DNA of 64,000 nucleotides from a virus (lineage: Duplodnaviria; Caudoviricetes), in the IMG/VR virus record IMGVR_UViG_3300042935_001404; one strand, 5' to 3'. Numbering within the stretch: position 1 is the stretch's first letter; the number at the start of each line of letters is the position of its first letter. Made by a program: the position numbers and the translations under genes. Shown piece after piece: positions 36,065 to 50,331 of this stretch. The notes under the pieces were generated by a model. It saw nothing but the letters and a program-made list of their open reading frames with translations, was not told the DNA's origin and ran no database searches.

Positions 36065-36571
36065 TTAACTGTTTAGGACTTTGGCAACCGAATTCATCAC
36101 TGCGGCAATACGTCCAATATCACGAAGCTGTTCTACTGTGTAGCCTTCTTGCTTGAGTGTTTCGTAATGTGCCTTAACACAGAAGTGGCACCGGCCAACA
36201 ATACTTGCGGCCAAACTAAATGCTTCAAAGTTTGATTTGGTAGTTCCACCATGTGATGCAATAGCGTTCATGCGTAACTGTGCTGGCAGTCCTTTTAGAG
36301 CAGGATCATCAGCCATTTCAATGTAAGGATACCACACATTGTTCTGTGCCATGATGCTGGCAGCAGTCATTGCTGACTCTGCGTGTACCGGAGCATCTGC
36401 TAAAATTACTGATAGGATCTTTCCGTTACCAGTTGCGGCCAATGCGGCCACGGCACAACCCATAGCCACATCTGCATCTAATGTACTACGCAAAAGTACT
36501 GCATCAAGATTTAACTTGGTGTCCTTTGCGTAGTCTGGCAATGCACCTTTGACGGCGTCGATGAAACTCAT
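36065..36571 (-). CDS. ahpD: alkylhydroperoxidase AhpD family
   Basis: YAKDTKLNL, CHFC redox motif with downstream His; near ahpC. Confidence 0.88.
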   Translation of the reverse strand: MSFIDAVKGALPDYAKDTKLNLDAVLLRSTLDADVAMGCAVAALAATGNGKILSVILADAPVHAESAMTAASIMAQNNVWYPYIEMADDPALKGLPAQLRMNAIASHGGTTKSNFEAFSLAASIVGRCHFCVKAHYETLKQEGYTVEQLRDIGRIAAVMNSVAKVLNS

Positions 36572-37260
36572 TATTTTCTATCTCCAAACAGTTGTAACAG
36601 ATTGATAAACAAGTTGATAAAGTCCATGTACAAAGTCAATGCTCCGCGAATTTCTGCCGAGTCACTGGTTTCTACTGACAGTTCTTCACGAATCTTCTGT
36701 GTGTCGTAAGCAGTTAATCCCAGAAAGATAATGATAGCCAGTGCGGAGATCACCATCTGCATCACGGTGCTGCCAATAAAGATGTTAACAATACTGGCAA
36801 TCACGATGGCAATTAAGCCAACAAACATGAACTTGCCCATGCTGTCTAGACTTTGTTTGGTAAAGTAGCCATAGCCACTCATTACTGCAAACAAGATGCC
36901 TGCACCCATAAATGCTGACACAATACTACCCATAGTGAACACAGCAAAGATCATGGAAAAACTCAAGCCCATTAAGGCCGCAAATCCATGCAAGCATAAC
37001 TGTGCTACGCCTTTGCTGGGATTATTACCTAGCACATAGCTGACACCAAAGATGGCCGCAAGTGGTGAAAAGATCACAATCCATTTTATCCAACCTGTAA
37101 AAAAGAATGCCAGTAACTCTGGACTAGATCCCACAAAGTAACTCACAAACATTGATACAATCACAGCAAGACTCATGTGTCCATACACACGGCCCATTGC
37201 TGAATTAATTTCGCTGGCAGAACGATATGCAATTCCACCTGTATAACTTGTTCCAAACAT
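36571..37260 (-). CDS. Bax inhibitor-1/YccA family membrane protein
   Basis: multiple TM segments, TAYDTQ, ALTLYMDFINLF. Confidence 0.92.
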   Translation of the reverse strand: MFGTSYTGGIAYRSASEINSAMGRVYGHMSLAVIVSMFVSYFVGSSPELLAFFFTGWIKWIVIFSPLAAIFGVSYVLGNNPSKGVAQLCLHGFAALMGLSFSMIFAVFTMGSIVSAFMGAGILFAVMSGYGYFTKQSLDSMGKFMFVGLIAIVIASIVNIFIGSTVMQMVISALAIIIFLGLTAYDTQKIREELSVETSDSAEIRGALTLYMDFINLFINLLQLFGDRK

Positions 37261-37270
37261 GATTTTCTCC

Positions 37271-37894
37271 TTAAAATTTACCTGATGCCAATACGATTTG
37301 ACAAATATGTTCTAATCGTTCAATGTGTTCAAATGCCCGCCACGGGCTTGTATCAATGGCCACAACTCCGTGACCTTTGATGCCTACGATGTCAAAACCA
37401 ATTGTGCCATCTTTTCTTAGCCAGAGATTTTCATGACAACGGTCTGCAAGCTCTTGACTGATAGGAGGTACATCTCCTACGTTCTTGGCCACTCGAGTAT
37501 ATCTACTTAGTTCTGGAAAGTCATCAACTATAGTGCTCAAGTCAATGCCGGCGTGCATAGCAGCCACACAGTATGTAGGATGTAAATGAACCACTACTCT
37601 AACATCAGTGCTGTGCTGACCCATTGCTCGTTGTAGGCCAAAATGTAGAGGAATTTCTCCGCTGGGCTTGAGATTGGCACTGATATCAGAGTAAGGCTCT
37701 TCTTTCCATGCCAAACTGCTTACAATCTTGATCTTCTTGAACTGGTCAGGTTGCATGGTCTGCTTACGAACGCCACTGGGTGTGATATAAAAGTGATCAC
37801 GGTCGTGATGACGAATGCTCACATTGCCATCACGACTGGTAATCCAGTTGCGTCTATATGCTTCAACCAGTGTGTCGCATATAGTTTCTAACAT
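37271..37894 (-). CDS. class II aldolase/adducin family protein
   Basis: GNVS, ITPSG, E..LH, VHLHP, GHGVV. Confidence 0.9.
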   Translation of the reverse strand: MLETICDTLVEAYRRNWITSRDGNVSIRHHDRDHFYITPSGVRKQTMQPDQFKKIKIVSSLAWKEEPYSDISANLKPSGEIPLHFGLQRAMGQHSTDVRVVVHLHPTYCVAAMHAGIDLSTIVDDFPELSRYTRVAKNVGDVPPISQELADRCHENLWLRKDGTIGFDIVGIKGHGVVAIDTSPWRAFEHIERLEHICQIVLASGKF

Positions 37895-38433
37895 TACAGT
37901 GTCTCGCCACCAACTGTACGGTTACAAGCACAAAGCTCGCCAGTTTGTAGTGCATCCAATACACGAAGTGTTTCTTCTGGGCTACGACCAACGTTCAAGT
38001 TGTTGACAGTAACGTGTTGGATAACGTTCTCTGGGTCAACAATGAATGTGGCACGAAGTGCGGCGCCTGCTGGAGCATAGAACACGCCCAACTGTTCAAT
38101 CAAACTCAACTCACCACGCTGTGTGTCAGCATACTGGTGATGGGTGATCTTCTTTAGATCTGCGTGTGCTGTTTGCCATGCTACTTTGCAGAACTCATTG
38201 TCTGTGCTACCAGTGAGCAGGACTGCATCACGGTCAGCAAAGTCTTGTGTTAGTTTGTCGTAGGCTACGATTTCTGTAGGGCAAACGAATGTAAAGTCTT
38301 TTGGATAGTAAACGATTACTTTCCACTTGCCTTCAAAACTTGTTTCAGTGATGGTATAGAAAGCGTCTTCTGGTTGTCCGGGCTTAACGCCTGTGACTGC
38401 AAATGGGGCTAATTTGTCGCCAACTGTTTTCAT
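37894..38433 (-). CDS. ahpC: peroxiredoxin AhpC
   Basis: YPKDFTFVCPTE, RATFIVD, GELC. Confidence 0.95.
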   Translation of the reverse strand: MKTVGDKLAPFAVTGVKPGQPEDAFYTITETSFEGKWKVIVYYPKDFTFVCPTEIVAYDKLTQDFADRDAVLLTGSTDNEFCKVAWQTAHADLKKITHHQYADTQRGELSLIEQLGVFYAPAGAALRATFIVDPENVIQHVTVNNLNVGRSPEETLRVLDALQTGELCACNRTVGGETL

Positions 38434-38488
38434 AATATCTCCTTTGTGTTGAATGAAAATGTTTGCAGAAGTTTTTCTGCATGTGTAT

Positions 38489-38574
38489 ATTGTACAGTTA
38501 TTTACATGAGAAATCGACCATCTCTCATGGTTTCTACTGAATATATTTCTATGGCAGCCATAGAAAAAATCAAT
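38489..38574 (-). promoter_or_regulatory. ahpC promoter (TCGATT-17-TACAAT) with upstream OxyR-like site
   Basis: ATTG-N7-CTAT-N7-ATAG-N7-TTCA at 38574-38538. Confidence 0.5.
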
Positions 38575-38600
38575 AAAGAAAACCCGCTAAAGCGGGTTTG
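38575..38600 (-). terminator. intrinsic terminator after porin
   Basis: AAACCCGC-TTTA-GCGGGTTT followed by TCTTT. Confidence 0.7.
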
Positions 38601-38619
38601 AAATCTACGTTGTGTTAAA

Positions 38620-39645
38620 TCAGAAACTATGTGACAATCCAATGTAACTAGCTGTACCTATGTTTGCAGTATCGGCTGCACCAGCGGCAGTTACAGCTTG
38701 CTTGGTATCTGATAAAAACGCTTCAAGTTTAGTACGCTTGCTGAAAGAATACACTGCGCGAACGCCTGTAACACCCTTCTTAGTGTTGGCAGCACCATTG
38801 GCACCAATGTTTACATTGTTAGACAACTTAGACAAAGACACATCTAACTTGGCATTAACTGGAACTTTAATGCCGTACTCAGTTGACTTATGAGCTGCCA
38901 TAGAAGTCAAATTGTCTTTTTGATTCATTTGGTTAACTGCAACTTCTGCAAATCCAAAATTGTAAGCGGCGTTGATAGTTTGCAACTTTTCAGCATTGAG
39001 ACCAGTGATATTAGCAACTTGAGCTTTTAATCCTCCTGCTGAATAGTTAACACCAATGACGTTCACATCATTCATCAACGTTGCTGTGGTTGTAGTGGCA
39101 AAACCATTGCCAGGGACCACTACATATTTGTTATGTCTGCCCTTGGCGTTTAATAAAAATACCTCTGCACCAGCAATCTTAGGCGAAGTGTATTGCACTT
39201 GTGCAGAATTGCGACCATAATTCAAGCCAGAATGGGTACCTTTAGACCAGTCTTGCATATAATGGCCGGCACCGTTTGTGCTGACCAACTGAGTAGAGAA
39301 ACGACCTAATTTAACATTGCCGAACTTGCTATCCACAAAAATATTAGACTGTTCCCACAATTGAGTGTTGGCGTCACCAGTTGATGAATTAGCATATGAC
39401 CCTTGTGCACCAGTTTCGGAACTAAAACGATTTTGTAAAAAAATACCAACTTTGGTACCACCGCCTAAGTCTTCAGCGGCACTAAAGTTTAAATAATTAC
39501 GGTCACCTTTGGCAGCGCCAACGGTAGTAACTCCGGCAGCAGACCTTGCTACACCATATTGAACCTGACCAGAAATTGTCACGGTTGATTGTGCAAGGAC
39601 AGCAGTAGATACAGTCAATGCTAAGATTGCGAAGATTTTCTTCAT
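38620..39645 (-). CDS. Gram-negative outer-membrane porin
   Basis: signal peptide; VTISG..YG, EDLGGG, YxFSKRT, C-terminal GLSHSF. Confidence 0.92.
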   Translation of the reverse strand: MKKIFAILALTVSTAVLAQSTVTISGQVQYGVARSAAGVTTVGAAKGDRNYLNFSAAEDLGGGTKVGIFLQNRFSSETGAQGSYANSSTGDANTQLWEQSNIFVDSKFGNVKLGRFSTQLVSTNGAGHYMQDWSKGTHSGLNYGRNSAQVQYTSPKIAGAEVFLLNAKGRHNKYVVVPGNGFATTTTATLMNDVNVIGVNYSAGGLKAQVANITGLNAEKLQTINAAYNFGFAEVAVNQMNQKDNLTSMAAHKSTEYGIKVPVNAKLDVSLSKLSNNVNIGANGAANTKKGVTGVRAVYSFSKRTKLEAFLSDTKQAVTAAGAADTANIGTASYIGLSHSF

Positions 39646-39778
39646 TAGTTTTTCCTTTAGATTAAATTAAAATCAACAGATTGTCGACTTTATCAACAGA
39701 CTGTCGATATAATATTTAGTCACGCAACATGATCCCTGACTTTTTGTCAACGAAATCCATCAAAAATAGAGGTTCTGC

Positions 39779-41098
39779 TTATTGAGATCTTAACCACTGA
39801 ATTAGTCGTCGATGTAAATTATAAAGTTTTTTACTAGATCCTGGATCTTGTTTTAATATTTTTTTTCGTATCGCTCTTCGAAATATGCCACGTGGTTTTT
39901 TGACGAGTCGAAATGCATCTATAAAATTTGTTTTTAATTCTTCAATTACCTGTTGTTGAAATGCATCGCTAAAAAAATGTTTTTTGTTAAAATCCGCTAT
40001 GCGTCTAATTTCTAGTAAAAATTGATCAAACTCCGGTGCGCCAAGAGAATTAATTTTATTCAGGCTGTTGATAATTTTTTCAAGTCTTAACAAACTATTT
40101 GTCTCTTGATCATAACTTTCGTCAATCCAAGGAGCAAATGTTCGAAATCCGTAACTTCTTAGATATTCTAAACTATGCGGGCCTGCTGCCAACACAAATG
40201 GATGTCCGCAGGCAATTGGTCTCAGTATCTTTTCTGTCAAGTGAATTCTTGAGTCGTCAAATATAGTTTCCAAAACTACACTTATTGCAGTTGAATTAAA
40301 ATCATCATGATTGTACTGTGCGCTTTCGTTGCTGTCACTGTGATTGTCTTCAAACAGATCTAGTACAGTGCTGTCTTTGAGCGCAAAATTAATATTTTTA
40401 AATTTGTGGTCCCGGTAATGATACCCTTGATCGCCTTCGGACCGTCTTGATATACTGATTTTACTTTGTTCATGCAATCCATGTTTGACCAACAACTCTA
40501 TAAACTTTAATCTGTATTCTCTAGTGTTGCCCCAGGCACGATTGTATATTAGGAATTTTTTACAAACTTGAGATTGCGTTGTTAGCCGAGTATCTATCTC
40601 GGCAAATCTATACCAGTCACGAGCAATAATTGCATGGCACCAATAATAAACTGGTAAAAAATTATTTTGAGAATACTGTTCTAAGTCAACAGAATTTTTT
40701 TCAGAATGCAGTAAAATTGCCTGTTCATAAAGAGATCCACACAACAATGGTATTGACAATAAATTTTTATCAACCGCCGCTTGACTACTTATTTTGGCCA
40801 CAGTGGGTTCGTTTAATGCAATGTGTAATGACACAGGATCAATATTTGTATAAAAATTATAATGCAATGGCTCTTGGTCGTGTGCAACAACTGGAATGTT
40901 AATAAAATATGTTAGGCCGTCAACACCATTGGCGCCAAGAGCAGTCAATGCATCAAGATCAGTTAATGTATCAATATCAGTCAATGGTCTGAGGTCAGAA
41001 ATATCTTTACTACCGTGAGGATAAAATCTGTAAAATGCTGTCGGAACAGGTATAATCGATTGCACCCAGTGGTACAAATTGTCTAAGGGAATGTTCAT
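39779..41098 (-). CDS. putative glycosyltransferase-like protein (ET..TEK family)
   Basis: VVLETIF..LTEKILRPI..GHPF..GFRTF..DESYD. Confidence 0.45.
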   Translation of the reverse strand: MNIPLDNLYHWVQSIIPVPTAFYRFYPHGSKDISDLRPLTDIDTLTDLDALTALGANGVDGLTYFINIPVVAHDQEPLHYNFYTNIDPVSLHIALNEPTVAKISSQAAVDKNLLSIPLLCGSLYEQAILLHSEKNSVDLEQYSQNNFLPVYYWCHAIIARDWYRFAEIDTRLTTQSQVCKKFLIYNRAWGNTREYRLKFIELLVKHGLHEQSKISISRRSEGDQGYHYRDHKFKNINFALKDSTVLDLFEDNHSDSNESAQYNHDDFNSTAISVVLETIFDDSRIHLTEKILRPIACGHPFVLAAGPHSLEYLRSYGFRTFAPWIDESYDQETNSLLRLEKIINSLNKINSLGAPEFDQFLLEIRRIADFNKKHFFSDAFQQQVIEELKTNFIDAFRLVKKPRGIFRRAIRKKILKQDPGSSKKLYNLHRRLIQWLRSQ

Positions 41099-41121
41099 GC
41101 CATTGGATTTTGTCTTTGAAT

Positions 41122-41435
41122 AAAAGGTAATTTAATTCTGTTACGAGGATAAATTACCAAAAACCCTAGGCAGTGTTTAGACTGCCAATGCTTCCTTGGC
41201 TGTACGAGCAGAGAACTTGACGTTCTTACCAGAAACAGTTACGGTTTTGTTTACGTTTGCATTTACGTTTTTTGCTTGATTAACGGTCATCGCCTACCGT
41301 GCTGTCCACTTGTTTACTTGTTGCCCTGTCGAATCTAGTGCTCCCCCACCTAAATATACTGAATACATTTAGGTGGAGGAGGGGGGATTCGCACCCCCGT
41401 CCAAGACACTTTTCTCTTTGCTTCATACAGCAATA
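41122..41435 (-). ncRNA. ssrA: circularly permuted (two-piece) tmRNA
   Basis: acceptor piece ..GGACGGGGGTGCGAATCCCCC CTCCTCC A (ends ~41374) precedes coding piece GGGGGAG CACTAGATTCGAC (starts 41347); 7-bp acceptor stem with G3:U70; tag ORF 41260-41177. Confidence 0.9.
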
Positions 41436-41440
41436 ACTCT

Positions 41441-41448
41441 TATTTATA
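41441..41448 (-). promoter_or_regulatory. T4-like late promoter TATAAATA upstream of tmRNA
   Basis: exact octamer; also seen at 28204-28211, 35912-35919, 51055-51062 (-) and 44887-44894 (+). Confidence 0.55.
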
Positions 41449-41450
41449 AT

Positions 41451-41525
41451 TGGTTGCGGGGGAAGGACTCGAACCTCCGGCTTCCAGGTTATGAGCCTGG
41501 CGGTCTACCACTGACGTACCCCGCG
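41451..41525 (-). tRNA. tRNA-fMet(CAT), initiator type
   Basis: C1:A72 mismatch, CCAGG-CTCATAA-CCTGG, CCA. Confidence 0.88.
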
Positions 41526-41531
41526 ATAAAT

Positions 41532-41621
41532 TGGCGGAAGCGGTGAGATTCGAACTCACGAGGGACGTTGATCCCTGCTGGGTTAGTAATCCAGTGCCAT
41601 CGGCCACTCGGCCACGCTTCC
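41532..41621 (-). tRNA. tRNA-Ser(ACT), rare A34 anticodon
   Basis: long variable arm, G73, loop TT-ACT-AA, CCA. Confidence 0.85.
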
Positions 41622-41631
41622 TGCAGTTGTT

Positions 41632-41865
41632 TTATGGCAAAATTTCGCTAGATACCACACCAGGTTGTGTGGCCGCCCAGTTCGTATATTCAGTTGCTTT
41701 CTCAAGTGTGGGCCATGTTCTTTCCCATATTGTATCACCGTTTTCGAGAGTTGTAAATGTTGGGAACTCACCCACGCCGTTTGGCCATGCTAAAGATATA
41801 AGAACATCTCTTGCCTCATTTGTCAATGAGGTTCCTGCTTCCACAACTATTTTTGTTTTAATCAT
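41632..41865 (-). CDS. hypothetical protein
   Basis: ORF with SD AGGA. Confidence 0.6.
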   Translation of the reverse strand: MIKTKIVVEAGTSLTNEARDVLISLAWPNGVGEFPTFTTLENGDTIWERTWPTLEKATEYTNWAATQPGVVSSEILP

Positions 41866-41894
41866 AATATTTTCCTATAAAAAATCAAAGTATG

Positions 41895-42395
41895 CTAGAA
41901 TTTTTCATTAACTTTAGCACGATAACTAGCAGTTGATAACCCTTTAAATCGATCTGCCGCATAACTGGCAGCAAATGCATTGGGTTTAACTGATGGCGTC
42001 ACATTACATGTTCCTTTAATGTAGCCAACAGCCTGTGATATCACACAGCTCGACCCGTATTTATCGTCAGGATTGATATCTAAGTGCACCTCAACATGAC
42101 GATTTTCCAACACTTCGCCCAATTTCAAATACAGTTCAGATACTTTGTAAACTTCATTCATCAGGCGCATGCTTGGACGCGATGTTTTTTGATCAAAGTC
42201 CCGTTCGCGGTGTACTTCTCCAAACAGTTTGCAACCGTTGTTGCCGTTGATATGCACCACAATGGCCACCACGTAGTCAGCATACCAAACACCGTTTACA
42301 CGATGACGTTCTGAGTCACACCCAAGATAAATCTTAGTCTCAGGAGTTTGTTCTTCAATGAACCTTTTTACTTTAACAAGATTTATCTTTTCCAT
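41895..42395 (-). CDS. RNase H-like YkuK/DUF458 family protein
   Basis: IYLGCDSE, RLMNEVYK, EVHLDIN, FAASYAADR. Confidence 0.8.
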   Translation of the reverse strand: MEKINLVKVKRFIEEQTPETKIYLGCDSERHRVNGVWYADYVVAIVVHINGNNGCKLFGEVHRERDFDQKTSRPSMRLMNEVYKVSELYLKLGEVLENRHVEVHLDINPDDKYGSSCVISQAVGYIKGTCNVTPSVKPNAFAASYAADRFKGLSTASYRAKVNEKF

Positions 42396-42407
42396 AATAT
42401 TTTACCT

Positions 42408-42492
42408 TGGTGCGGATGGAGAGATTCGAACTCTCACGATTTTACTCGCTGGAACCTAAATCCAGTGCGGCTACCAATTACGCCACATCCGC
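42408..42492 (-). tRNA. tRNA-Leu(TAG)
   Basis: CTGGA-TTTAGGT-TCCAG, long variable arm, CCA. Confidence 0.93.
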
Positions 42493-42503
42493 ATTGTTTT
42501 TAT

Positions 42504-43439
42504 TTATTGACCGAGTTTTGTTGCAAATGATTCAAACATATGGTCCATGGTTTTGATATTTTGCAAATCTAATTTGTAGTCACCAGACTTGCTGACCAGA
42601 TGTTTTTGAACCAAGTCAGGCATGGCCAGTTTGATTGCTTGATTCAGATCCTTGACAACTTGATCTCGCACTTCTCGGGGAGTGTCTTTTCTTATAAAGA
42701 AACTGTATCCTGCCACTAAGTTTTGGTAATCAGAGAATCCGGGACTTGTTAAATTAGGCAAATCTGGAAAGTCAGTTGACTTTTTGTTGTCAAACACAAA
42801 CAGCGGTGTTAGTGTTCCGGCAGTGATGTGTTGATTAACATTGCCGTAGCTGATAACAGCAAAGTCAAGTTGATTGTTTAAAATATCTACAATCACCTGA
42901 GGTATACTTTTGTAGTTGACCAAAATTCCGTTGACTTTCATCTTGTCTATGGCTAATGATCCGTAAATGTGAAGAGGACTTCCTGTTATAGTGCTACCAT
43001 ATGTTAGTCCTTTTTGTTTGCCTAGTTCTGCCAGATCATTGAGATTCTTGATGTTTCTTTTGCTGTTGGTAACCAATACCCATTGTGGAGAATAGAAATG
43101 TGATACCGGTTCGAAATGCCGTTCGTAATCAAATCCTGTTGACGGTTTTGCACTGGCATAGGCAGTTGATGCGTAGAACAAAATTGTATGGCCATCGGCC
43201 GGGGCCGACAAGACATGTTGAGACGCTATGGCAGCGGCCCCACCTGGTTTGTTCATTACCACGACACCGGATTTCCAGATCCCGTCTAGTTTTTCTGCCA
43301 CAGTTCTTGTGATAAGATCAAGTCCACCGCCTGCTCCTGTGGGAACAATTAGTTGTACAGGTTTCTCAGGAAACGCTGATACAGAGACACTAACACTCAT
43401 AACAAGTGCGGTTAATAATGTTGATACAATTTTCTTCAC
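42504..43439 (-). CDS. Bug/TctC tripartite tricarboxylate transporter substrate-binding protein
   Basis: signal peptide; FPEKPVQLIVP..GGG.D..R, NKPGG.., ADGHT, YK. Confidence 0.9.
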   Translation of the reverse strand: MKKIVSTLLTALVMSVSVSVSAFPEKPVQLIVPTGAGGGLDLITRTVAEKLDGIWKSGVVVMNKPGGAAAIASQHVLSAPADGHTILFYASTAYASAKPSTGFDYERHFEPVSHFYSPQWVLVTNSKRNIKNLNDLAELGKQKGLTYGSTITGSPLHIYGSLAIDKMKVNGILVNYKSIPQVIVDILNNQLDFAVISYGNVNQHITAGTLTPLFVFDNKKSTDFPDLPNLTSPGFSDYQNLVAGYSFFIRKDTPREVRDQVVKDLNQAIKLAMPDLVQKHLVSKSGDYKLDLQNIKTMDHMFESFATKLGQ

Positions 43440-43460
43440 GGTTGCTTTCTTTAAAATTAA

Positions 43461-44594
43461 TCACGATCCAATGTCGTATTCCTTGCTCCAAATAAACGGC
43501 AAGTCATATAACATATTTTGCCGTTTAGTTCGAAATAGATTGTTATGCTTAAAATGATTTACTAGTGTTGTTTGGGTGTATAGATTATATACGCCTTTTA
43601 AGAAGTTTGCGGCCTCAGGTCGTCCAGATCTTAGATCTTCAACCAGAAATCTACTCTCCGGTGATGCTGTCTCGATGTCTTGCCAAGAACCGGTTAGATT
43701 TACATTTGAAATTCCTGCTAAACGTTCACTTAGCACTTTCTGCGATCGACTCACTCCATAGTTTAATTCCTGGTGTCGCCCGCAATCTAAACTCATTTGT
43801 TCAAATCCTTTGGTGGTTTTTTTATAATTGGCCTCGGCTAGCCCGCCATTGTGTAACTTTAGTTGATTTTGTTGAATGTACTTTTTAACATTGTTCTTGA
43901 ACACATGACTTTGTTTAACAGCCAGCACTGTATCTAAAAAGAACGCTTCGATATGTGGCCTATTAAACCCTTGATCTAAAACCATTGCCAGTTGTCTACT
44001 AAACCATCGACCGTTTCTATAAACAAGTCTGGGTTTTTCGTACCCTGTGATGCATTTGAAAGTGTGCCCGCTGTACTTTTGGTATACCGCATCTTCTGTT
44101 GTGGTAAATGGAAGATTAAAATATCTAACTAACTCTGTTCTCTTGCTATTAAAAATCCAGTCTTCGCTGTTGACAAATGGATTGTGTTTGTTAGGTGCTC
44201 GGGCATCCAGCAACGTTATTTCGGTATGCGGATCCCAGTGATTCTTTTTTACCCATTCATACGCACTGGTAGGGAACCATGCAAATTCTTCTGCGGCAGC
44301 AACAATTATCTCATCTAGGTGTATTTTATGTTTGGCAAACACATTGTAAATGGTTTGGCTGTCAAACCCACCACTGTAGTATAGCACTAATTTTTCGTAT
44401 TTGTTCCTGAGCTCAAAGGCTCGATACGCCATTAAATTATCAAATGAATCAGTTGATTCTGTAGTCCAGTCAACCTTATCGTATTGATCTTCGTTTAGAT
44501 AGAACTTGACTGGATGACCAGTTTCAGTAGAGTTTATCCAAGCAAGATATACATTGTTATAAGGTTGGTTGTTTACAGTGTAAAAAGCGTTCAT
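43461..44594 (-). CDS. PP-loop (SGGxDS) adenine-nucleotide alpha-hydrolase-like protein
   Basis: LYYSGGFDSQTI. Confidence 0.5.
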   Translation of the reverse strand: MNAFYTVNNQPYNNVYLAWINSTETGHPVKFYLNEDQYDKVDWTTESTDSFDNLMAYRAFELRNKYEKLVLYYSGGFDSQTIYNVFAKHKIHLDEIIVAAAEEFAWFPTSAYEWVKKNHWDPHTEITLLDARAPNKHNPFVNSEDWIFNSKRTELVRYFNLPFTTTEDAVYQKYSGHTFKCITGYEKPRLVYRNGRWFSRQLAMVLDQGFNRPHIEAFFLDTVLAVKQSHVFKNNVKKYIQQNQLKLHNGGLAEANYKKTTKGFEQMSLDCGRHQELNYGVSRSQKVLSERLAGISNVNLTGSWQDIETASPESRFLVEDLRSGRPEAANFLKGVYNLYTQTTLVNHFKHNNLFRTKRQNMLYDLPFIWSKEYDIGS

Positions 44595-44899: not shown

Positions 44900-45085
44900 A
44901 TGCAAACGCAAACACAAGATTTTATTTCAGTTAGTGGACATCTACAAGTGCATCTGTCACTCAGTGAGTATAACACATCTTATATTTTTGTCAATGATAT
45001 TTTCAATGATCGGCTAATTATGCGTTACTTTGGTGATCATGAATCTGCAGTCAACTGGATCAAGACTCTTAAAGACCACTATTGA
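44900..45085 (+). CDS. hypothetical protein antisense to tRNA operon
   Basis: TATAAATA at 44887-44894 directly upstream of ATG. Confidence 0.55.
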   Translation: MQTQTQDFISVSGHLQVHLSLSEYNTSYIFVNDIFNDRLIMRYFGDHESAVNWIKTLKDHY

Positions 45086-45093
45086 TCACATGC

Positions 45094-45169
45094 TGGGGAG
45101 AAGTATGGGAATTGAACCCATATTAACGGAATCACAATCCGTGGTGTTGACCTTTACACTAACTACTCC
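45094..45169 (-). tRNA. tRNA-His(GTG)
   Basis: G-1:C73, ACGGA-TTGTGAT-TCCGT. Confidence 0.92.
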
Positions 45170-45173
45170 GTGT

Positions 45174-45248
45174 TGGTCTCGCTTGCAAGAATCGAACTCA
45201 CATTCAAGAGGTAGAAGCTCTTTGTATTATCCATTATACTAAAGCGAG
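45174..45248 (-). tRNA. tRNA-Arg(TCT)
   Basis: AAGAG-CTTCTAC-CTCTT, CCA. Confidence 0.9.
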
Positions 45249-45250
45249 AA

Positions 45251-45328
45251 TGGCAGAGGGTACTGGATTCGAACCAGTGATCATGGAGTCAAAGTCCAAT
45301 GCTTTAGGCCAAACTAAGCTAACCCCCA
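45251..45328 (-). tRNA. tRNA-Gln(TTG)
   Basis: loop CTTTGAC, G73, CCA. Confidence 0.9.
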
Positions 45329-45339
45329 GTAATAATTGT

Positions 45340-45413
45340 TGGAGCGGGATAGGAGAATCGAACTCCTGACTAAACCTTGGCAAGGTTTCGTTTGACCATT
45401 AAACTAATCCCGC
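45340..45413 (-). tRNA. tRNA-Gly(GCC)
   Basis: AAACC-TTGCCAA-GGTTT, U73, CCA. Confidence 0.93.
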
Positions 45414-45416
45414 ATG

Positions 45417-45491
45417 TGGTGGTGATGAGTAGAGTCGAACTACCACCGGACTCCGTATGAAGGAGGCGCACTACCGTTATGCTACATCACC
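45417..45491 (-). tRNA. tRNA-CAT (elongator Met or Ile2, not resolved)
   Basis: fully paired acceptor GGTGATG, loop TTCATAC, CCA. Confidence 0.85.
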
Positions 45492-45493
45492 GA

Positions 45494-46228
45494 TCAGTCG
45501 AAGTAGTATTCGAGATCAGAGAGACCGACCACGTTAGAATAATCTAAGCCGTGTATGTAAGACTCGCGACGCAAGTCATTTCCGGGCACCAAGTCTCGGC
45601 GAATGTGTGTCAGTTCCATACATCCAAAAACGCCATCAGTGTCATAGCTCACGTGATTGTTGCCGTGTACGTGTACAATGGCATAGTGCTCTTGCCACCG
45701 CTCCACAGCCTGGTGCCATTGTTTGCTACGATTGGCACAGTTGTGCCATTCCATTGCAACGCCTACAATGCGATCGCGATGTTGTACGATGCTTTCAATC
45801 AAACTGTATTCACCACCTTCGATGTCCATCTTGATGAACACCTGGTCTACGCCCATTCTGTCTAGGGCCCGAACAAAATTTTCTGGCCCAATAAACTCTG
45901 GCCAATGTTTTACGTTATCTTGAAAGAATTCATCGTACATGGCTCGAATATCCAAGTGTCCACGAACCGGCGTATTGATGCTGATACGCATGGTATCTCT
46001 AGTGACACTGGCATCATACATCTGAATCGGATCTGTAGGTTTGAGATTATGCCAGTCTTGATCAAATGTAAAATCGTCACCTAGTCCAAAACTTAACAGA
46101 CCCTGTGCTTGGTCCACTGCTGAACGTGGCAAAATGTAGCCGCCGTCCATTTTTCCACCTAATCTAATTAGGTCAGGCACTGCAACAGGGCAGAGCCAAT
46201 GTAGTTCTTGGGGTAGTTTAATTTTCAT
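45494..46228 (-). CDS. FkbM-like SAM-dependent methyltransferase
   Basis: RLGGKMDGGY, SFGLGDDFTF, FIKMDIEGGE. Confidence 0.7.
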   Translation of the reverse strand: MKIKLPQELHWLCPVAVPDLIRLGGKMDGGYILPRSAVDQAQGLLSFGLGDDFTFDQDWHNLKPTDPIQMYDASVTRDTMRISINTPVRGHLDIRAMYDEFFQDNVKHWPEFIGPENFVRALDRMGVDQVFIKMDIEGGEYSLIESIVQHRDRIVGVAMEWHNCANRSKQWHQAVERWQEHYAIVHVHGNNHVSYDTDGVFGCMELTHIRRDLVPGNDLRRESYIHGLDYSNVVGLSDLEYYFD

Positions 46229-46346
46229 AATTTTATTTATTAACTGGTTTTACACACCATATAAAAGCACACTATATGCGCCCTGGTTGTTAAGCGCCAC
46301 TAACAGCCTGCAACCACGCAGGGTAGCCGTGTAATGTGCTTTTATA

Positions 46347-46420
46347 TGGTAGGGGTGCAGGGGAACGATCCCTGTTTTACGGATTAAAAGTCCGTTACTT
46401 CACCTTAAAGTTTCACCCCC
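46347..46420 (-). tRNA. tRNA-Lys(TTT)
   Basis: ACGGA-CTTTTAA-TCCGT; atypical T-loop ATCGTTC; CCA. Confidence 0.88.
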
Positions 46421-46543
46421 TAATGGGCTTTGTTTTTGTGCTCGACGCAGAGCCTTGTTGCTCTTACGATGCGAACCTGCTTTGCGGAACAGTGCAAGAC
46501 GAACGAAGCAGTTACGTTCGCGCACGATCGATTTACGTTTCAT
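46400..46543 (-). CDS. 47-aa highly basic small protein whose stop codon lies inside tRNA-Lys (ArfA/BrfA-like candidate)
   Basis: SD AAGGA; MKRKSIVRERNCFVRLALFRKAGSHRKSNKALRRAQKQSPL then GGETLR* from tRNA sequence. Confidence 0.6.
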   Translation of the reverse strand: MKRKSIVRERNCFVRLALFRKAGSHRKSNKALRRAQKQSPLGGETLR

Positions 46544-46562
46544 ACAGTTTCCTTTTATAAAA

Positions 46563-46638
46563 TGGTGGAGGATAACGGATTCGAACCGTTTGCTCCTGGT
46601 TGCAAACCAGGTGTGTTAGCCAAGTATACCAATCCCCC
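46563..46638 (-). tRNA. tRNA-Ala(TGC)
   Basis: G3:U70, CCTGG-TTTGCAA-CCAGG, CCA. Confidence 0.93.
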
Positions 46639-46639
46639 A

Positions 46640-46875
46640 ATATGCTCTGCATCCCCCGGCGGTAATTATAGAGTATCAACATAGATTAATCCGGAATCTA
46701 ACTCAACTAAGGTTAGCGATTCTATGCATCACACACTCCTTCCACCCGCTTCCCGACAGGGACCGTTATCGCATTGCTAGCGGCCTTTTGGTAAGAAGAC
46801 TACCACCCTTGAGTAACGAACTCACTTCTCTCGTACGGGTCATACTAGCCAGGCGTTACCCCGACGGGTTCTTCT
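46640..46875 (-). ncRNA. unidentified multi-helix structured RNA
   Basis: nested helices incl. GAGTGT/ATACTC, GCATAGA/TCTATGT, GGTGG/TTACC, CCTGGC/GCCGGG with G.U pairs on minus strand; no ORF in track. Confidence 0.55.
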
Positions 46876-46907
46876 CTCAAATAAGCATAAGCATAGTATT
46901 CTTTCAT
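46845..46907 (-). pseudogene. N-terminal remnant resembling a GIY-YIG (Seg-like) homing endonuclease
   Basis: MKEYYAYAYLREE then 7 unrelated residues and stop. Confidence 0.45.
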
Positions 46908-46923
46908 ACCTTGACGAGAATCT

Positions 46924-47685
46924 TTACAACCTAGATTCTATCATAGGAGCAATAAAATCAGCAATCTGAATATGAGCTTTTTCTGTAGGATGATGTGATA
47001 TTGGATTTAACAATCCAATATCAACTAAAAACGCTACTCTATTGGAGTCTACAACCCAATTTGAATAATGATAGTTGTTATCAACATTTTTCATGTTATT
47101 TCTCAAACACAATTGTGACATTAAATCTCTATCAGGTATATCAATCATATTGTCGATGGGTTGATGATACAGATGATGATTAAATGTATCAACCCATATA
47201 TTTTTGACCCCCATTGACTTATAAAAAACATTCCAAAAATTCATCTCAACTTCTAATTGTTGTACTTCGTGATTATGATCATATGAATGTTTAACCATAA
47301 ACTCGCTAAATTTATTTGGCATATTATATTTGCAATGTAACACAGACATTGTGTCTAAATCAAAAAATACATTTCGAGCAGTTGATGTGATTGCATGCAA
47401 TACAATAATTTTATCATATGTTTCTTGATCACATTTGAAATCAATTTTACTAAAATATCTTTTAGCATAATTAAATTGAGCTTGATTACTGCTTCCACCA
47501 TGTGCAAAATTTTTGTTATCTAATGCAAAATTTTTAGACAAAACACCACGAAATGATTTTGTCCCACAAATGTCTGAATTCCATGCAATAGAATTATACA
47601 CAGCAGTGGATTGCTCAATTTGATATCCTACACCAACTCCATAGGTCCAACTGCACCCAAACGTGATAAGCAAATTTTTATTCAT
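46924..47685 (-). CDS. SGNH/GDSL-hydrolase-like protein
   Basis: FGCSWTYG, NFAHGGSSN, SHHPTE. Confidence 0.55.
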   Translation of the reverse strand: MNKNLLITFGCSWTYGVGVGYQIEQSTAVYNSIAWNSDICGTKSFRGVLSKNFALDNKNFAHGGSSNQAQFNYAKRYFSKIDFKCDQETYDKIIVLHAITSTARNVFFDLDTMSVLHCKYNMPNKFSEFMVKHSYDHNHEVQQLEVEMNFWNVFYKSMGVKNIWVDTFNHHLYHQPIDNMIDIPDRDLMSQLCLRNNMKNVDNNYHYSNWVVDSNRVAFLVDIGLLNPISHHPTEKAHIQIADFIAPMIESRL

Positions 47686-48334
47686 GTTTTTGTAGTACCA
47701 TTCTTAATGTTCCCTCGGCCATGTTAGATCCAATATGAGTATCATCAAGTTCAAAACACAAAATCTCATCTCTAAAAATTTCAATTTGATCACGTATGTA
47801 TGTTGATGCAGTATTTTTTATTTCTGTAGTCTCTGCACCTATCATATGACACACATTCATCATGATAAAAATTTTACCACCTGGTTTGGTCATTTGTAAG
47901 ACTTGATTGATCCTGTTAGAAAATTGCGACAATGGAATAAAATGCAAAGCATTCATACTCATGATATTTTCAAATTTTTCTGTATTTTCCTTGACAAACG
48001 CATCATCTACAAACCCAACCTGGTCAGCATAAAAATTTAATGATTTTGAATCAATGCCGATTATGTTTGGAATATATTTTTTATATATGTTCCACCCACA
48101 TCCAATATCATAAATTTTAGAGCTTGATGCTAATTGTAAAATATAGTAAAAAGGAACCATTGAAAATATTCTTTTGCCACGATATTCGCGCGGCGTCATT
48201 CCCATAAAGCCCAAAGTTGGTATATTAGTTTCCCAAGTCAACAAATCAAAATCTTGTTTTACGTTACGTGCCAAATCAGTTGATTCAAAGCTTTTTCGAA
48301 AATTTTCTAAGTTATATGCGTTTAAATTGTTCAT
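47678..48334 (-). CDS. class I SAM-dependent methyltransferase-like protein
   Basis: IYDIGCG, IGIDS, SMNALHF, KPGG. Confidence 0.7.
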   Translation of the reverse strand: MNNLNAYNLENFRKSFESTDLARNVKQDFDLLTWETNIPTLGFMGMTPREYRGKRIFSMVPFYYILQLASSSKIYDIGCGWNIYKKYIPNIIGIDSKSLNFYADQVGFVDDAFVKENTEKFENIMSMNALHFIPLSQFSNRINQVLQMTKPGGKIFIMMNVCHMIGAETTEIKNTASTYIRDQIEIFRDEILCFELDDTHIGSNMAEGTLRMVLQKHE

Positions 48335-49569: not shown

Positions 49570-50331
49570 TTAAAGATTTTTAAAAACTTTTTTTATAATT
49601 GCACTGCGATCCAGTTTGGAACTGGCACCCAGCACAATGACTGCGTACTGTTGTTTGTTGTGTTCTACCAGCATGGCCACACACCATCCAGCAAGATTAG
49701 TAAATCCAGTCTTGCTCACGTCCACACGGGTAAACTCTGCCAACAGTGGACGGGATGTGTGAACCAGGTTCACAGAGCTGCCGCCTATTTTGTCAAGTTT
49801 TTTCAACAGCACAGTTGACTGCCCACTGGCTTCTTGTATAAACCAATAGTTGGCAGCAATCTGTACCATTTCTATTAGATCCCGTGCAGTGGACACATTG
49901 AACACACCCAGGCCTGACGGATCTACAAATTTAGTATTTCGAAGATTCCACATCCGGGCATGTCGATTCATTTCAGCTACAAAGGCAGATCGGCCTCCGG
50001 GGTAGTTCTGTGCAATGGTTTCGGCTGCTCCGTTGTCACTGCTGACCAGCATGGCCAGCAACAACTGTTCTCTGGTGTACCTGCCGGGCGGCAATCGACT
50101 GCCGGTGTTTTTTCTCAGCACCAACTGCTGTTGAAGATCTCTGTTGTGATCCAATGCAACCATGGCAGTCATCAACTTGGTCACACTGGCCATTGATCTG
50201 ATTTGATCACTATTTTGACTCAGTTCCGTGCGCTGTGCATTGATGTTGTAGACCAACACTGTGGGCTCACGTGCGTGGGCCGTTGCATTGGATAAAACTG
50301 TACAAAAAAGTACTGCGGCAAATAATTTCAT
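49570..50331 (-). CDS. D-alanyl-D-alanine carboxypeptidase/endopeptidase (peptidase S11)
   Basis: signal peptide; ASVTKLMTA (SxxK), SDN, KTG. Confidence 0.92.
   Translation of the reverse strand: MKLFAAVLFCTVLSNATAHAREPTVLVYNINAQRTELSQNSDQIRSMASVTKLMTAMVALDHNRDLQQQLVLRKNTGSRLPPGRYTREQLLLAMLVSSDNGAAETIAQNYPGGRSAFVAEMNRHARMWNLRNTKFVDPSGLGVFNVSTARDLIEMVQIAANYWFIQEASGQSTVLLKKLDKIGGSSVNLVHTSRPLLAEFTRVDVSKTGFTNLAGWCVAMLVEHNKQQYAVIVLGASSKLDRSAIIKKVFKNL

What the first reader, a model, noticed from the sequence alone, without database searches (positions are those of the whole stretch)
46400..46543. Basic small ORF reads into tRNA-Lys: tRNA processing would create a non-stop mRNA (ArfA/BrfA-like)
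Seen: SD AAGGA and ATG at 46543. Exactly 41 codons (14 Lys/Arg, motif FRKAGSHRKSNK) precede tRNA-Lys +1 (46420), and the only in-frame stop is 21 nt inside the tRNA. Established: RNase P cuts at tRNA +1. E. coli arfA and B. subtilis brfA are made from non-stop transcripts, so tmRNA destroys their products unless trans-translation is saturated. Inference: this is an alternative ribosome-rescue factor whose non-stop switch is tRNA maturation, a feedback design I do not know to be described. Sequence homology to ArfA is not established.
Basis: partly seen in the sequence, partly recalled or inferred. Interest (0 to 1): 0.85.

Follow-up and report, generated by a model that had tools for sequence, protein, structure and literature searches.

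The report
Stop-less basic peptide gene abutting tRNA-Lys
A real, widely conserved 41-codon phage gene for a very basic peptide has no stop codon before the tRNA-Lys gene it runs into. Its relatives always run into a tRNA, a long hairpin or a terminator instead of stopping, the gene layout of the ribosome-rescue factors ArfA and BrfA, so it is probably a new, unannotated rescue-factor-like family.

Summary
ATG 46543, 41 codons, tRNA-Lys(UUU) +1 at 46420, first in-frame stop 46402-46400 inside the tRNA.

- **Real gene.** The core has median dN/dS 0.11. It belongs to a large family with no Pfam, NCBIfam or PHROGs model: 594 clusters at 50% identity.
- **The layout is a family trait.**
  - In 62 distinct viral loci and in tRNA arrays of Burkholderia, Rhodoferax and Thiobacillus, the ORF enters tRNA-Lys(UUU) with no earlier stop, in all three frames.
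  - In 33 loci of a second phage group, a 15-26 bp helix starts where the conserved core ends. No stop lies before it or in its 5' arm.
  - Stand-alone chromosomal homologs read through 14-29 bp hairpins, some followed by a U-run, before their stop, as arfA and brfA do.
- **Context.** The window also encodes a permuted tmRNA.
- **Sequence.** Homology to ArfA is not established. The core motif RKAGSHRK / RKGGAHRK resembles the mRNA-channel motifs of ArfA (KGKGS) and ArfT (KKGGSTNKK).
- **Untested.** Rescue activity, RNase P cutting in vivo and control by tmRNA are inferred.

First-stage notes of this scan report the same layout in at least three other genomes. None was followed up.

Verdict: a new variant of the ArfA/BrfA design, of high interest.

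The parts
46550..46554 (-). Shine-Dalgarno AAGGA, 6 nt before the ATG
   Evidence: An SD-like motif lies 4-12 nt upstream of the start in 94 of 102 distinct family loci.
46421..46543 (-). Conserved 41-codon core ORF. It encodes a basic peptide whose nearly invariant core is RNxFVxLALFRKAGSHRKSNKALRR.
   Evidence: 112 clusters found and 594 clusters at 50% identity. Median dN/dS 0.11; codon-position entropy 0.56/0.36/1.26. AF2 gives a single helix, residues 12-38, pLDDT 79.
46420..46421 (-). Junction of codon 41 and tRNA-Lys +1. This is the predicted RNase P cleavage site that would leave the ORF without a stop.
   Evidence: tRNA boundary from ARAGORN. RNase P cutting at tRNA +1 is established knowledge. 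Cleavage here was not measured.
46400..46420 (-). Read-through tail GGETLR plus TGA, encoded by tRNA-Lys nucleotides 1-21. It is translated only from uncut precursor.
   Evidence: Tails differ completely between relatives and follow the entry frame into the tRNA (GGETLR, GV, WA, IAQLVEQ, or the whole tRNA).
46347..46420 (-). tRNA-Lys(UUU) with encoded CCA
   Evidence: ARAGORN; Rfam RF00005 at 51.4 bits. It is the downstream partner in 62 of 66 distinct loci where the ORF reads into a tRNA.
46563..46638 (-). tRNA-Ala(UGC) directly upstream. The ORF mRNA is therefore the spacer between two tRNAs.
   Evidence: A same-strand upstream tRNA ends within 30 nt of the ATG in 41 of 88 loci.
41177..41432 (-). 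Phage-encoded permuted (two-piece) tmRNA, context for the non-stop logic
   Evidence: Rfam RF04321 at 129.9 bits and beta_tmRNA at 96.5 bits. Found over cut-off in 14 of 32 large relatives' contigs searched, none of them among the hairpin-type contigs. Most relatives' tags are ANDERFALAA-like.

Best explanation
The ORF is a real gene for a ~41-residue, helical, strongly basic peptide of a large unannotated family.

**Defining trait of the family.** The conserved ~40-residue core is followed at once by an RNA processing or termination structure that lies before the stop codon.
- In the window's group it is the 5' end of tRNA-Lys(UUU), an RNase P site.
- In a second phage group it is a 15-26 bp hairpin.
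- In chromosomal copies it is a 14-29 bp hairpin or an intrinsic terminator.

**Proposed mechanism**
1. The tRNA array is transcribed as a precursor.
2. RNase P cuts at tRNA-Lys +1 and releases the inter-tRNA spacer as a short mRNA that ends after codon 41 without a stop.
3. Ribosomes run to its 3' end.
4. tmRNA, from the host or the phage, tags the peptide for degradation.
5. The untagged peptide accumulates only when trans-translation is saturated. That could happen after defence nucleases cut tRNAs or mRNAs.
6. [quoted passage not shown]

**Shown here:** the gene is real, and the stop-less layout is conserved in three structural guises.
**Inferred:** cleavage, tmRNA control, ribosome binding and rescue.
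For: 1. **Layout conserved.** 62 distinct viral loci read into tRNA-Lys(UUU) with no earlier stop, in three frames and 14 geometries. The peptide is 37-45.7 codons long up to tRNA +1. tRNA arrays of Burkholderia, Rhodoferax, Thiobacillus and a Gallionellaceae MAG show an ORF-into-tRNA junction too; ARAGORN calls the tRNA Lys(UUU) in the first three genera and a questionable tRNA-SeC in the Gallionellaceae locus.
2. **Second phage group.** In 33 distinct loci a 15-26 bp helix starts 24-39 nt after the motif, at the end of the core. No stop lies before it or in its 5' arm. In the 27 loci scanned for exact inverted repeats, it is the only one of 13 bp or more, or one of very few, per ~6 kb locus; six loci showed none at that strict threshold.
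3. **Chromosomal homologs.** They are the same family (hhalign 98.3%, E 1.4e-14). Their ORFs run 20-65 codons beyond the core through hairpins of 14-29 bp that at most 1 of 100-200 shuffles matched. The stop is in the loop, in the 3' arm or beyond. L194, L197 and L192 have a U-run before the stop.
4. **Same design as known factors.** arfA uses RNase III cleavage or termination in a stem-loop; brfA has a terminator before the stop (PMC8012679).
5. **Motif likeness.** RKAGSHRK and RKGGAHRKS resemble ArfA KGKGS and ArfT KKGGSTNKK, which those papers place or propose in the mRNA channel. The family has an invariant His among Lys/Arg, compare the KH motif of ArfA and BrfA.
6. **tmRNA context.** The window and 14 of 32 large relatives' contigs searched encode a tmRNA. 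Most carry a canonical ...ALAA degron tag.
7. **Selection on the protein.** dN/dS is 0.11, while the tails are unconserved.
8. **A gap to fill.** ArfA is rare in Betaproteobacteria: 37 of 1000 genomes (PMC11633108). None of 9 genomes carrying this family has PF03889.
Against: - No experiment and no 3'-end data exist. Metatranscriptome contigs cover the ORF only thinly and give no ends.
- No significant sequence homology to ArfA. For the phage family, 54 of 150 column shuffles score as high. The chromosomal subfamily is marginal: P 0.039, 2 of 100 shuffles.
- No PDB, Pfam or NCBIfam hit.
- Some members have ordinary stops and no structure: Sideroxydans L156, L199, L200 and Acidovorax phage ACP17.
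- In many hairpin-type loci the stop lies in the 3' arm, so an uncut transcript would still allow normal termination.
- A ribosome that reaches the tRNA before RNase P acts could terminate at the internal stop.
- The near-exclusive pairing with tRNA-Lys, rather than any tRNA, is not explained by the rescue model alone.
Confidence: 0.55

Rival explanations
1. It is an ordinary small basic protein, for example an RNA or tRNA binder or an anti-defence peptide that works with tRNA-Lys. Its 3' end merely overlaps the next RNA gene because the array is compact. The stop inside the tRNA or hairpin is the working stop on unprocessed transcripts.
For: - tRNA-Lys(UUU) is the partner in 62 of 66 tRNA junctions.
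- A stop always appears within a few codons inside the tRNA.
- Some homologs have plain stops.
Against: - The tails range from 2 residues to a whole translated tRNA and are unconserved.
- The hairpin group has no adjacent tRNA-Lys.
- Chromosomal copies are under no compaction pressure, yet they place a hairpin or terminator inside the ORF.
- Among the 62 distinct loci that read into tRNA-Lys, none has acquired a stop at the end of the core.
Confidence: 0.2
2. It is a diverged, shortened member of the ArfA family (PF03889) that has lost the segment around KGKGS. On this view it is homologous to ArfA, not merely analogous.
For: - The blocks are colinear: FVAAALF[RK]K against LVAQPLFR, and KGG[AV]H.K against KGKGSY.RK.
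- hhalign of the chromosomal subfamily against ArfA gives P 0.039, with 2 of 100 shuffles as high.
- Earlier scan notes describe a 'GKG-less ArfA-like' 42-codon gene in a SAR11-type bacterium.
Against: - The phage family against ArfA scores no better than shuffles.
- A first hhalign gave probability 0.1.
- No PF03889 hit at E up to 10 in 91 members scanned.
- ArfA, BrfA and ArfT are themselves regarded as independent inventions.
Confidence: 0.15
3. It is a cis-acting translated leader. Ribosomes that read into the acceptor stem or hairpin tune the folding, processing or expression of the downstream tRNA, and the peptide itself matters little.
For: - The ORF physically invades the tRNA.
- In 20 of 33 hairpin-type loci the helix ends exactly at the next tRNA's -1 position.
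- The ORF is rich in Lys codons, and its usual downstream partner is tRNA-Lys.
Against: - Purifying selection acts on the amino-acid sequence across hundreds of clusters. The invariant residues lie in the middle of the peptide, not at its C-terminal end.
- Chromosomal homologs have no downstream tRNA.
Confidence: 0.07
4. It is a ribosome-binding peptide with the opposite purpose. It occupies the mRNA channel or A site to block host trans-translation or host translation (shut-off) rather than to rescue ribosomes.
For: It has a basic helical tail with motifs like those of factors that bind the mRNA channel. It is carried by phages.
Against: - It also exists as a conserved stand-alone chromosomal gene.
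- The phage brings its own tmRNA with a normal degron tag in most relatives.
Confidence: 0.05

Closest known systems
ArfA (YhdL, Pfam PF03889) of E. coli and other Gamma- and some Betaproteobacteria
   Same: - Small basic protein.
- The ORF continues past the functional core into an RNA structure, so the translated mRNA lacks a stop and the product is controlled by tmRNA (PMC8012679).
- Gly-rich K/R motif plus a His in the tail.
- The tails beyond the core are unconserved.
   Different: - No detectable sequence homology. The match is marginal for the chromosomal subfamily.
- The core is ~40 residues, against 52-55 for ArfA.
- The motif is RKAGSHRK or RKGGAHRK, not KGKGSY.
- In the window the truncating device is a tRNA 5' end (RNase P), not an RNase III hairpin or terminator.
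- RF2 dependence is unknown.
BrfA (YqkK) of Bacillus subtilis
   Same: The ORF has a rho-independent terminator before the stop codon. Chromosomal homologs L194, L197 and L192 show a hairpin plus U-run before the stop. It has a basic C-terminal part with a His.
   Different: It is unrelated in sequence: a profile search of PDB, which holds BrfA entry 6SZS, found nothing. It comes from a different phylum. The phage form uses a tRNA instead of a terminator.
ArfT of Francisella tularensis
   Same: About 40 residues. Its charged C-terminal part carries KKGGSTNKK, close to the family's RKGG[AV]HRKSNK or RKAGSHRKSNK. It was unannotated in many genomes.
   Different: [quoted passage not shown] This family nearly always has such a structure. 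Homology was not tested because no ArfT sequence was available from a tool.
C-terminal tails of SmpB and ArfB
   Same: They are positively charged tails that become helical in the empty mRNA channel. The AF2 model of the peptide is one long basic helix.
   Different: Those tails are attached to globular domains. This peptide has no other domain.

Membership tests
ArfA (PF03889) | Match to the Pfam ArfA model | tested here: not met
   No hit at E up to 10 for the window peptide, the 41 cores of A5, the 40 of A6 and 10 further full-length chromosomal homologs. No hit in six-frame searches of the nearest phage record.
ArfA (PF03889) | Profile-profile homology to ArfA sequences | tested here: inconclusive
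   Phage family (245 sequences) against ArfA (103 sequences): score 8.9, and 54 of 150 column shuffles score as high. Chromosomal subfamily against ArfA: P 0.039, 2 of 100 shuffles.
ArfA (PF03889) | KGKGS(Y) motif | tested here: not met
   The family has RKAGSHRK (phage) or RKGG[AV]H.K (chromosomal). This is a resemblance, not the motif.
ArfA/BrfA functional class | An RNA structure (RNase III hairpin or terminator) inside the ORF before the stop, giving a non-stop mRNA | tested here: met
   At the sequence level only. There is a tRNA 5' end in 62 distinct loci, a 15-26 bp helix in 33 loci, and 14-29 bp hairpins or terminators in 11 of 18 chromosomal loci, with weaker ones in 3 more. None has a stop before the structure. 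Cleavage or termination itself was not measured.
ArfA/BrfA functional class | Product kept low by tmRNA tagging | not testable with these tools
   Only context is available: the window and 14 of 32 large relatives' contigs searched encode a tmRNA, mostly with ...ALAA tags.
ArfA/BrfA functional class | Basic C-terminal tail with a KH motif that binds the mRNA entry channel | tested here: inconclusive
   33% K+R. His25, Lys27 and Lys30 are invariant. A literal KH occurs only in some members, for example ...AGKH.... Binding is not testable here.
ArfA/BrfA functional class | Recruits RF2 (or RF1) to non-stop ribosomes; synthetic lethality with ssrA | not testable with these tools
   The one complex prediction gave no verdict (see Tried and rejected). 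This needs biochemistry and genetics.
ArfT | ~40 residues with a KKGGSTNKK-like C-terminal motif, and an own stop with no truncating structure | tested here: inconclusive
   Size and motif are similar. The gene layout differs: a structure precedes the stop. No ArfT sequence was available for an alignment.

The most novel reading that the evidence does not exclude
tRNA maturation by RNase P is used as the switch that makes a non-stop mRNA for a new, widespread class of alternative ribosome-rescue factor. The class would be borne by phages and by Betaproteobacteria.

Together with the phage's own tmRNA and its 25-tRNA array, it would form a portable module that repairs translation after host nucleases attack tRNAs or mRNAs. 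Each cleavage event would yield one tRNA-Lys and one message for the back-up factor.
Probability: 0.4. Interest if true: 0.9.

Novelty: new variant of a known kind. Interest (0 to 1): 0.8.

Why it matters
Alternative rescue factors are tiny and evolve independently, and homology searches miss them. The reviews read here say that further ones probably await discovery.

- **A candidate family.** It has hundreds of clusters. It was found not by sequence likeness but by its gene layout, a stop-less core that abuts an RNA processing site.
- **A lineage with a gap.** It occurs where ArfA is rare: 37 of 1000 Betaproteobacteria.
- **Phage biology.** It occurs in phages that also carry tmRNA and large tRNA sets.
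- **If confirmed**, it would:
  - add RNase P to the enzymes that create regulatory non-stop mRNAs;
  - show that phages import a back-up ribosome-rescue system;
  - give a search rule (core ORF running into a tRNA, hairpin or terminator) for more such factors.

The hypothesis is directly testable with standard genetics and in vitro translation.

Tried and rejected
- **Known-family searches.** Pfam, PHROGs and NCBIfam scans of the peptide and relatives gave nothing. A profile search of PDB chain sequences gave nothing at E up to 10.
- **hhalign against ArfA.** Not above shuffled controls for the phage family.
- **Complex prediction, peptide with E. coli RF2.** 'No answer', score 0.00, controls not run. 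I treat this as no evidence either way.
- **ESM Atlas feature search.** Only unnamed small viral clusters, plus a weak DUF7230 lead (0.86) that no Pfam scan confirmed.
- **Metatranscriptome contigs laid on 45000-48000.** Thin cover of the ORF (pieces 46441-46591 and 46499-46638) and no information on RNA ends. DNA carry-over cannot be excluded.
- **Arrest-peptide idea.** Rejected because the last ~8 residues before the junction are the least conserved.
- **Generic-repeat idea for the group-B hairpin.** Rejected because, in the 27 loci scanned, it is the only exact inverted repeat of 13 bp or more, or one of very few, per locus.
- **Fusion idea.** I considered that the phage tmRNA tag turns the peptide into a functional fusion. 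This is unlikely, because most relatives' tags are ordinary ANDERFALAA-type degrons.
- **Literature searches.** No description of this family or layout was found.
- **First attempt at the large profile search.** That row was removed.

Full report
**1. The observation**

On the minus strand the window reads tRNA-Ala(UGC) 46638-46563, then 19 nt holding AAGGA (46554-46550), then ATG at 46543. ARAGORN places tRNA-Lys(UUU) at 46420-46347, and Rfam confirms it.

The ORF 46543-46400 has 47 codons. Codon 41 ends at 46421, so tRNA +1 starts a new codon. The first in-frame stop, TGA 46402-46400, is tRNA nucleotides 19-21. The 41 residues hold 6 Lys and 8 Arg. Every detail of the finding is correct.

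**2. It is a real, conserved gene**

- A word-indexed search found 112 clusters of small proteins with a nearly invariant core, RNxFVxLALFRKAGSHRKSNKALRR.
- A profile search of 1.84 billion representatives found 594 clusters at E up to 1e-3. The match always lies at residues 1-40, while total lengths run from 42 to about 190.
- In 94 distinct core DNA sequences, entropy by codon position is 0.56/0.36/1.26 bits and median pairwise dN/dS is 0.11.
- 101 of 102 distinct loci start with ATG, and 94 have an SD-like motif.
- Pfam, PHROGs, NCBIfam and PDB sequence searches give nothing.
- AF2 with the family alignment predicts one long helix, residues 12-38, mean pLDDT 79.

**3. The stop-less junction is a family trait**

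Two scans of IMG/VR gave 147 loci carrying the motif, 102 of them distinct.

- In 62 distinct loci the ORF reads straight into tRNA-Lys(UUU) with no earlier stop.
- The distance from the motif to tRNA +1 is 21-47 nt.
- All three frames are used. The stop falls at tRNA position +5, +7, +10, +13, +18, +20, +23, +27 or +77, or nowhere within the locus. That makes 14 geometries.
- The peptide up to tRNA +1 is 37-45.7 codons, with a mode of 40.67.
- The translated tails (GGETLR, GV, WA, IAQLVEQ, or a whole tRNA) simply follow the frame.
- The GenBank record named Synechococcus phage BUCT-ZZ01 has the same junction, 42 codons followed by tRNA-Lys.
- In bacterial assemblies the gene sits in tRNA arrays of Burkholderia, Rhodoferax and Thiobacillus and again runs into tRNA-Lys(UUU). 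A Gallionellaceae MAG has the same kind of junction, but ARAGORN calls the tRNA there a questionable tRNA-SeC.

**4. A second phage group swaps the tRNA for a hairpin**

In 33 distinct AT-rich loci the core ends in ...RRxEKSKK.

- A continuous 15-26 bp helix starts 24-39 nt after the motif (mostly 29-31 nt), which is exactly at the end of the core.
- No locus has a stop before the helix or in its 5' arm. The stop lies in the loop or insert in 6 loci, in the 3' arm in 18, and beyond the helix in 9.
- In 20 loci the helix ends at the nucleotide before the next tRNA, which is Met, Cys, Arg, Thr or His.
- The arms differ between loci while pairing is kept, for example TGTATCCTATT/AATAGGATACA against TGTATCCCATT/AATGGGATACA.
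- In the 27 loci scanned for exact inverted repeats, this helix is the only one of 13 bp or more, or one of very few, per ~6 kb locus; six loci showed none at that strict threshold.
- Stems of this length are plausible RNase III substrates. That is an inference.

**5. Chromosomal homologs show the arfA/brfA hallmark**

More distant members are stand-alone genes among ordinary bacterial genes such as TamB, PhoU, peptidase M24 and FliP. A six-frame search found the family in 11 of 300 genomes of the class that holds Rhodoferax saidenbachensis. The same kind of search found Pfam ArfA in 3 of 300. These copies are clearly the same family: hhalign 98.3%, E 1.4e-14, with 0 of 100 shuffles as high.

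Their ORFs run 20-65 unconserved codons past the core.

| Hairpin inside the ORF | Loci (of 18) |
|---|---|
| 14-29 bp, matched by at most 1 of 100-200 shuffles | 11 |
| Weaker hairpin | 3 |
| None | 4 |

In all 14 loci with a hairpin it begins before the stop. The stop lies in the loop, in the 3' arm or beyond. In L194, L197 and L192 a U-run follows the stem and precedes the stop.

This matches the published design. arfA carries a stem-loop that causes premature termination or RNase III cleavage. brfA carries a rho-independent terminator before the stop. Both give non-stop mRNAs that tmRNA keeps silent (PMC8012679).

**6. Relation to known factors**

- Homology to ArfA is not demonstrable for the phage family: hhalign probability 0.1, and 54 of 150 column shuffles score as high.
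- It is marginal for the chromosomal subfamily: P 0.039, 2 of 100 shuffles.
- At motif level the family's RKAGSHRKSNK and RKGG[AV]HRKSNK resemble ArfA KGKGS and ArfT KKGGSTNKK. Those papers place or propose these motifs in the empty mRNA channel.
- The invariant His among Lys/Arg recalls the KH motif shared by ArfA and BrfA.
- ArfA, BrfA and ArfT are themselves regarded as independent inventions. So failing the ArfA membership test does not weaken the reading that this works like an Arf.

**7. Context**

- The window carries a permuted tmRNA at 41177-41432: RF04321 at 129.9 bits.
- The same family scores over its cut-off in 14 of 32 large relatives' contigs. None of the hairpin-type contigs among them has it, and those carry no standard tmRNA either. 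These counts come from two phage lineages, so they are not independent.
- Most phage tmRNA tags are ordinary degrons such as ANDERFALAA. The window's clade has a conserved 27-residue tag ending in ALAV.
- Neighbouring genes include a TctC-family receptor and a porin. Together with the beta-type tmRNA, they point to a betaproteobacterial host.
- A published survey finds arfA in only 37 of 1000 Betaproteobacteria and arfB in 709 (PMC11633108).
- None of 9 genomes carrying the new family has PF03889. The base rate is low, so this is weak evidence.

**8. Mechanism and its status**

- *Shown:* the gene is real, and the core-then-structure-before-stop layout is conserved in three guises.
- *Established elsewhere:* RNase P cuts at tRNA +1, and non-stop products are tagged by tmRNA.
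- *Inferred:* the spacer mRNA is released without a stop; the peptide accumulates only when trans-translation is saturated; it binds the vacant mRNA channel and promotes release.

Weak points:
- Some members have ordinary stops: L156, L199, L200 and phage ACP17, where the gene is unannotated and lacks an ATG.
- The stop lies in the 3' arm in many hairpin loci.
- A ribosome may race RNase P to the tRNA.
- The near-exclusive use of tRNA-Lys is unexplained. It may reflect only the zero-length linkage, or a tie to defences that cut tRNA-Lys.

**9. Earlier scan notes and verdict**

First-stage notes in at least three other genomes describe the same ORF-into-tRNA-Lys layout. None was followed up. 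Two followed-up notes describe a 'GKG-less ArfA-like' 42-codon gene in a SAR11-type bacterium. My own tests neither prove nor exclude that link.

I rate the finding as a new variant of the ArfA/BrfA design in a new protein family. My confidence in the rescue-factor reading is 0.55, and interest is high.

Noticed in passing
window 41177-41432 (-): Phage-encoded permuted (two-piece) tmRNA: RF04321 at 129.9 bits. ARAGORN reads a 27-residue tag, ANVNKTVTVSGKNVKFSARTAKEALAV. It is conserved with conservative changes in three relatives, whereas other related phages carry ANDERFALAA-type tags.
   Followed up: partly
window 46717-46817 (within the unnamed RNA 46640-46875, - strand, upstream of tRNA-Ala): Very high word depth in four lake, marine and freshwater metatranscriptomes: up to 13,739, against 5-20 over the ORF. 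Rfam has no match even at E up to 1. Two runs hold a variant that replaces 46671-46740 with 26 other letters. This looks like an abundant, conserved, unnamed structured RNA.
   Followed up: partly
L082:3117-3176 and relatives (group-B hairpins): The loop of the 15-22 bp hairpin holds a near-consensus TTGACA-N17-TATAAT promoter whose -10 box lies in the 3' arm, about 10 nt before the next tRNA. In other loci (L095, L102, L103) a 17-26 bp stem encloses a 70-90 nt insert with a T-arm-like GGTTCGAAAC element. That insert may be a small RNA released by processing.
   Followed up: no
L078:503-795 and L081: The ORF reads into a tRNA-like 5' half (acceptor and D arm). About 250 nt of structured sequence follows before the next tRNA, and ARAGORN calls no tRNA there. 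It could be an intron-containing or split tRNA-Lys.
   Followed up: no
L179:1484-1632 (Acidovorax phage ACP17, KY979132 151747-151895): A cultured phage has an unannotated homolog of the peptide. It has its own stop, no ATG start and no adjacent tRNA, and it overlaps the start of the next gene. It is either decaying or expressed differently, and would be a useful contrast for experiments.
   Followed up: partly
window 36571-44594 and 49570-50331 (-): Host-like genes are interspersed with the tRNAs: a Bax-inhibitor-1 family membrane protein, a Gram-negative porin, a TctC-family receptor, a YkuK-type RNase H-like protein and a D-Ala-D-Ala carboxypeptidase.
   Followed up: no
window 41532-41621 (-): ARAGORN calls a tRNA-Ser with anticodon ACT (A at the wobble position) next to the tmRNA. 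The same pair, tRNA-Ser(ACT) and tRNA-Met beside the tmRNA, recurs in relatives L173 and L178.
   Followed up: no
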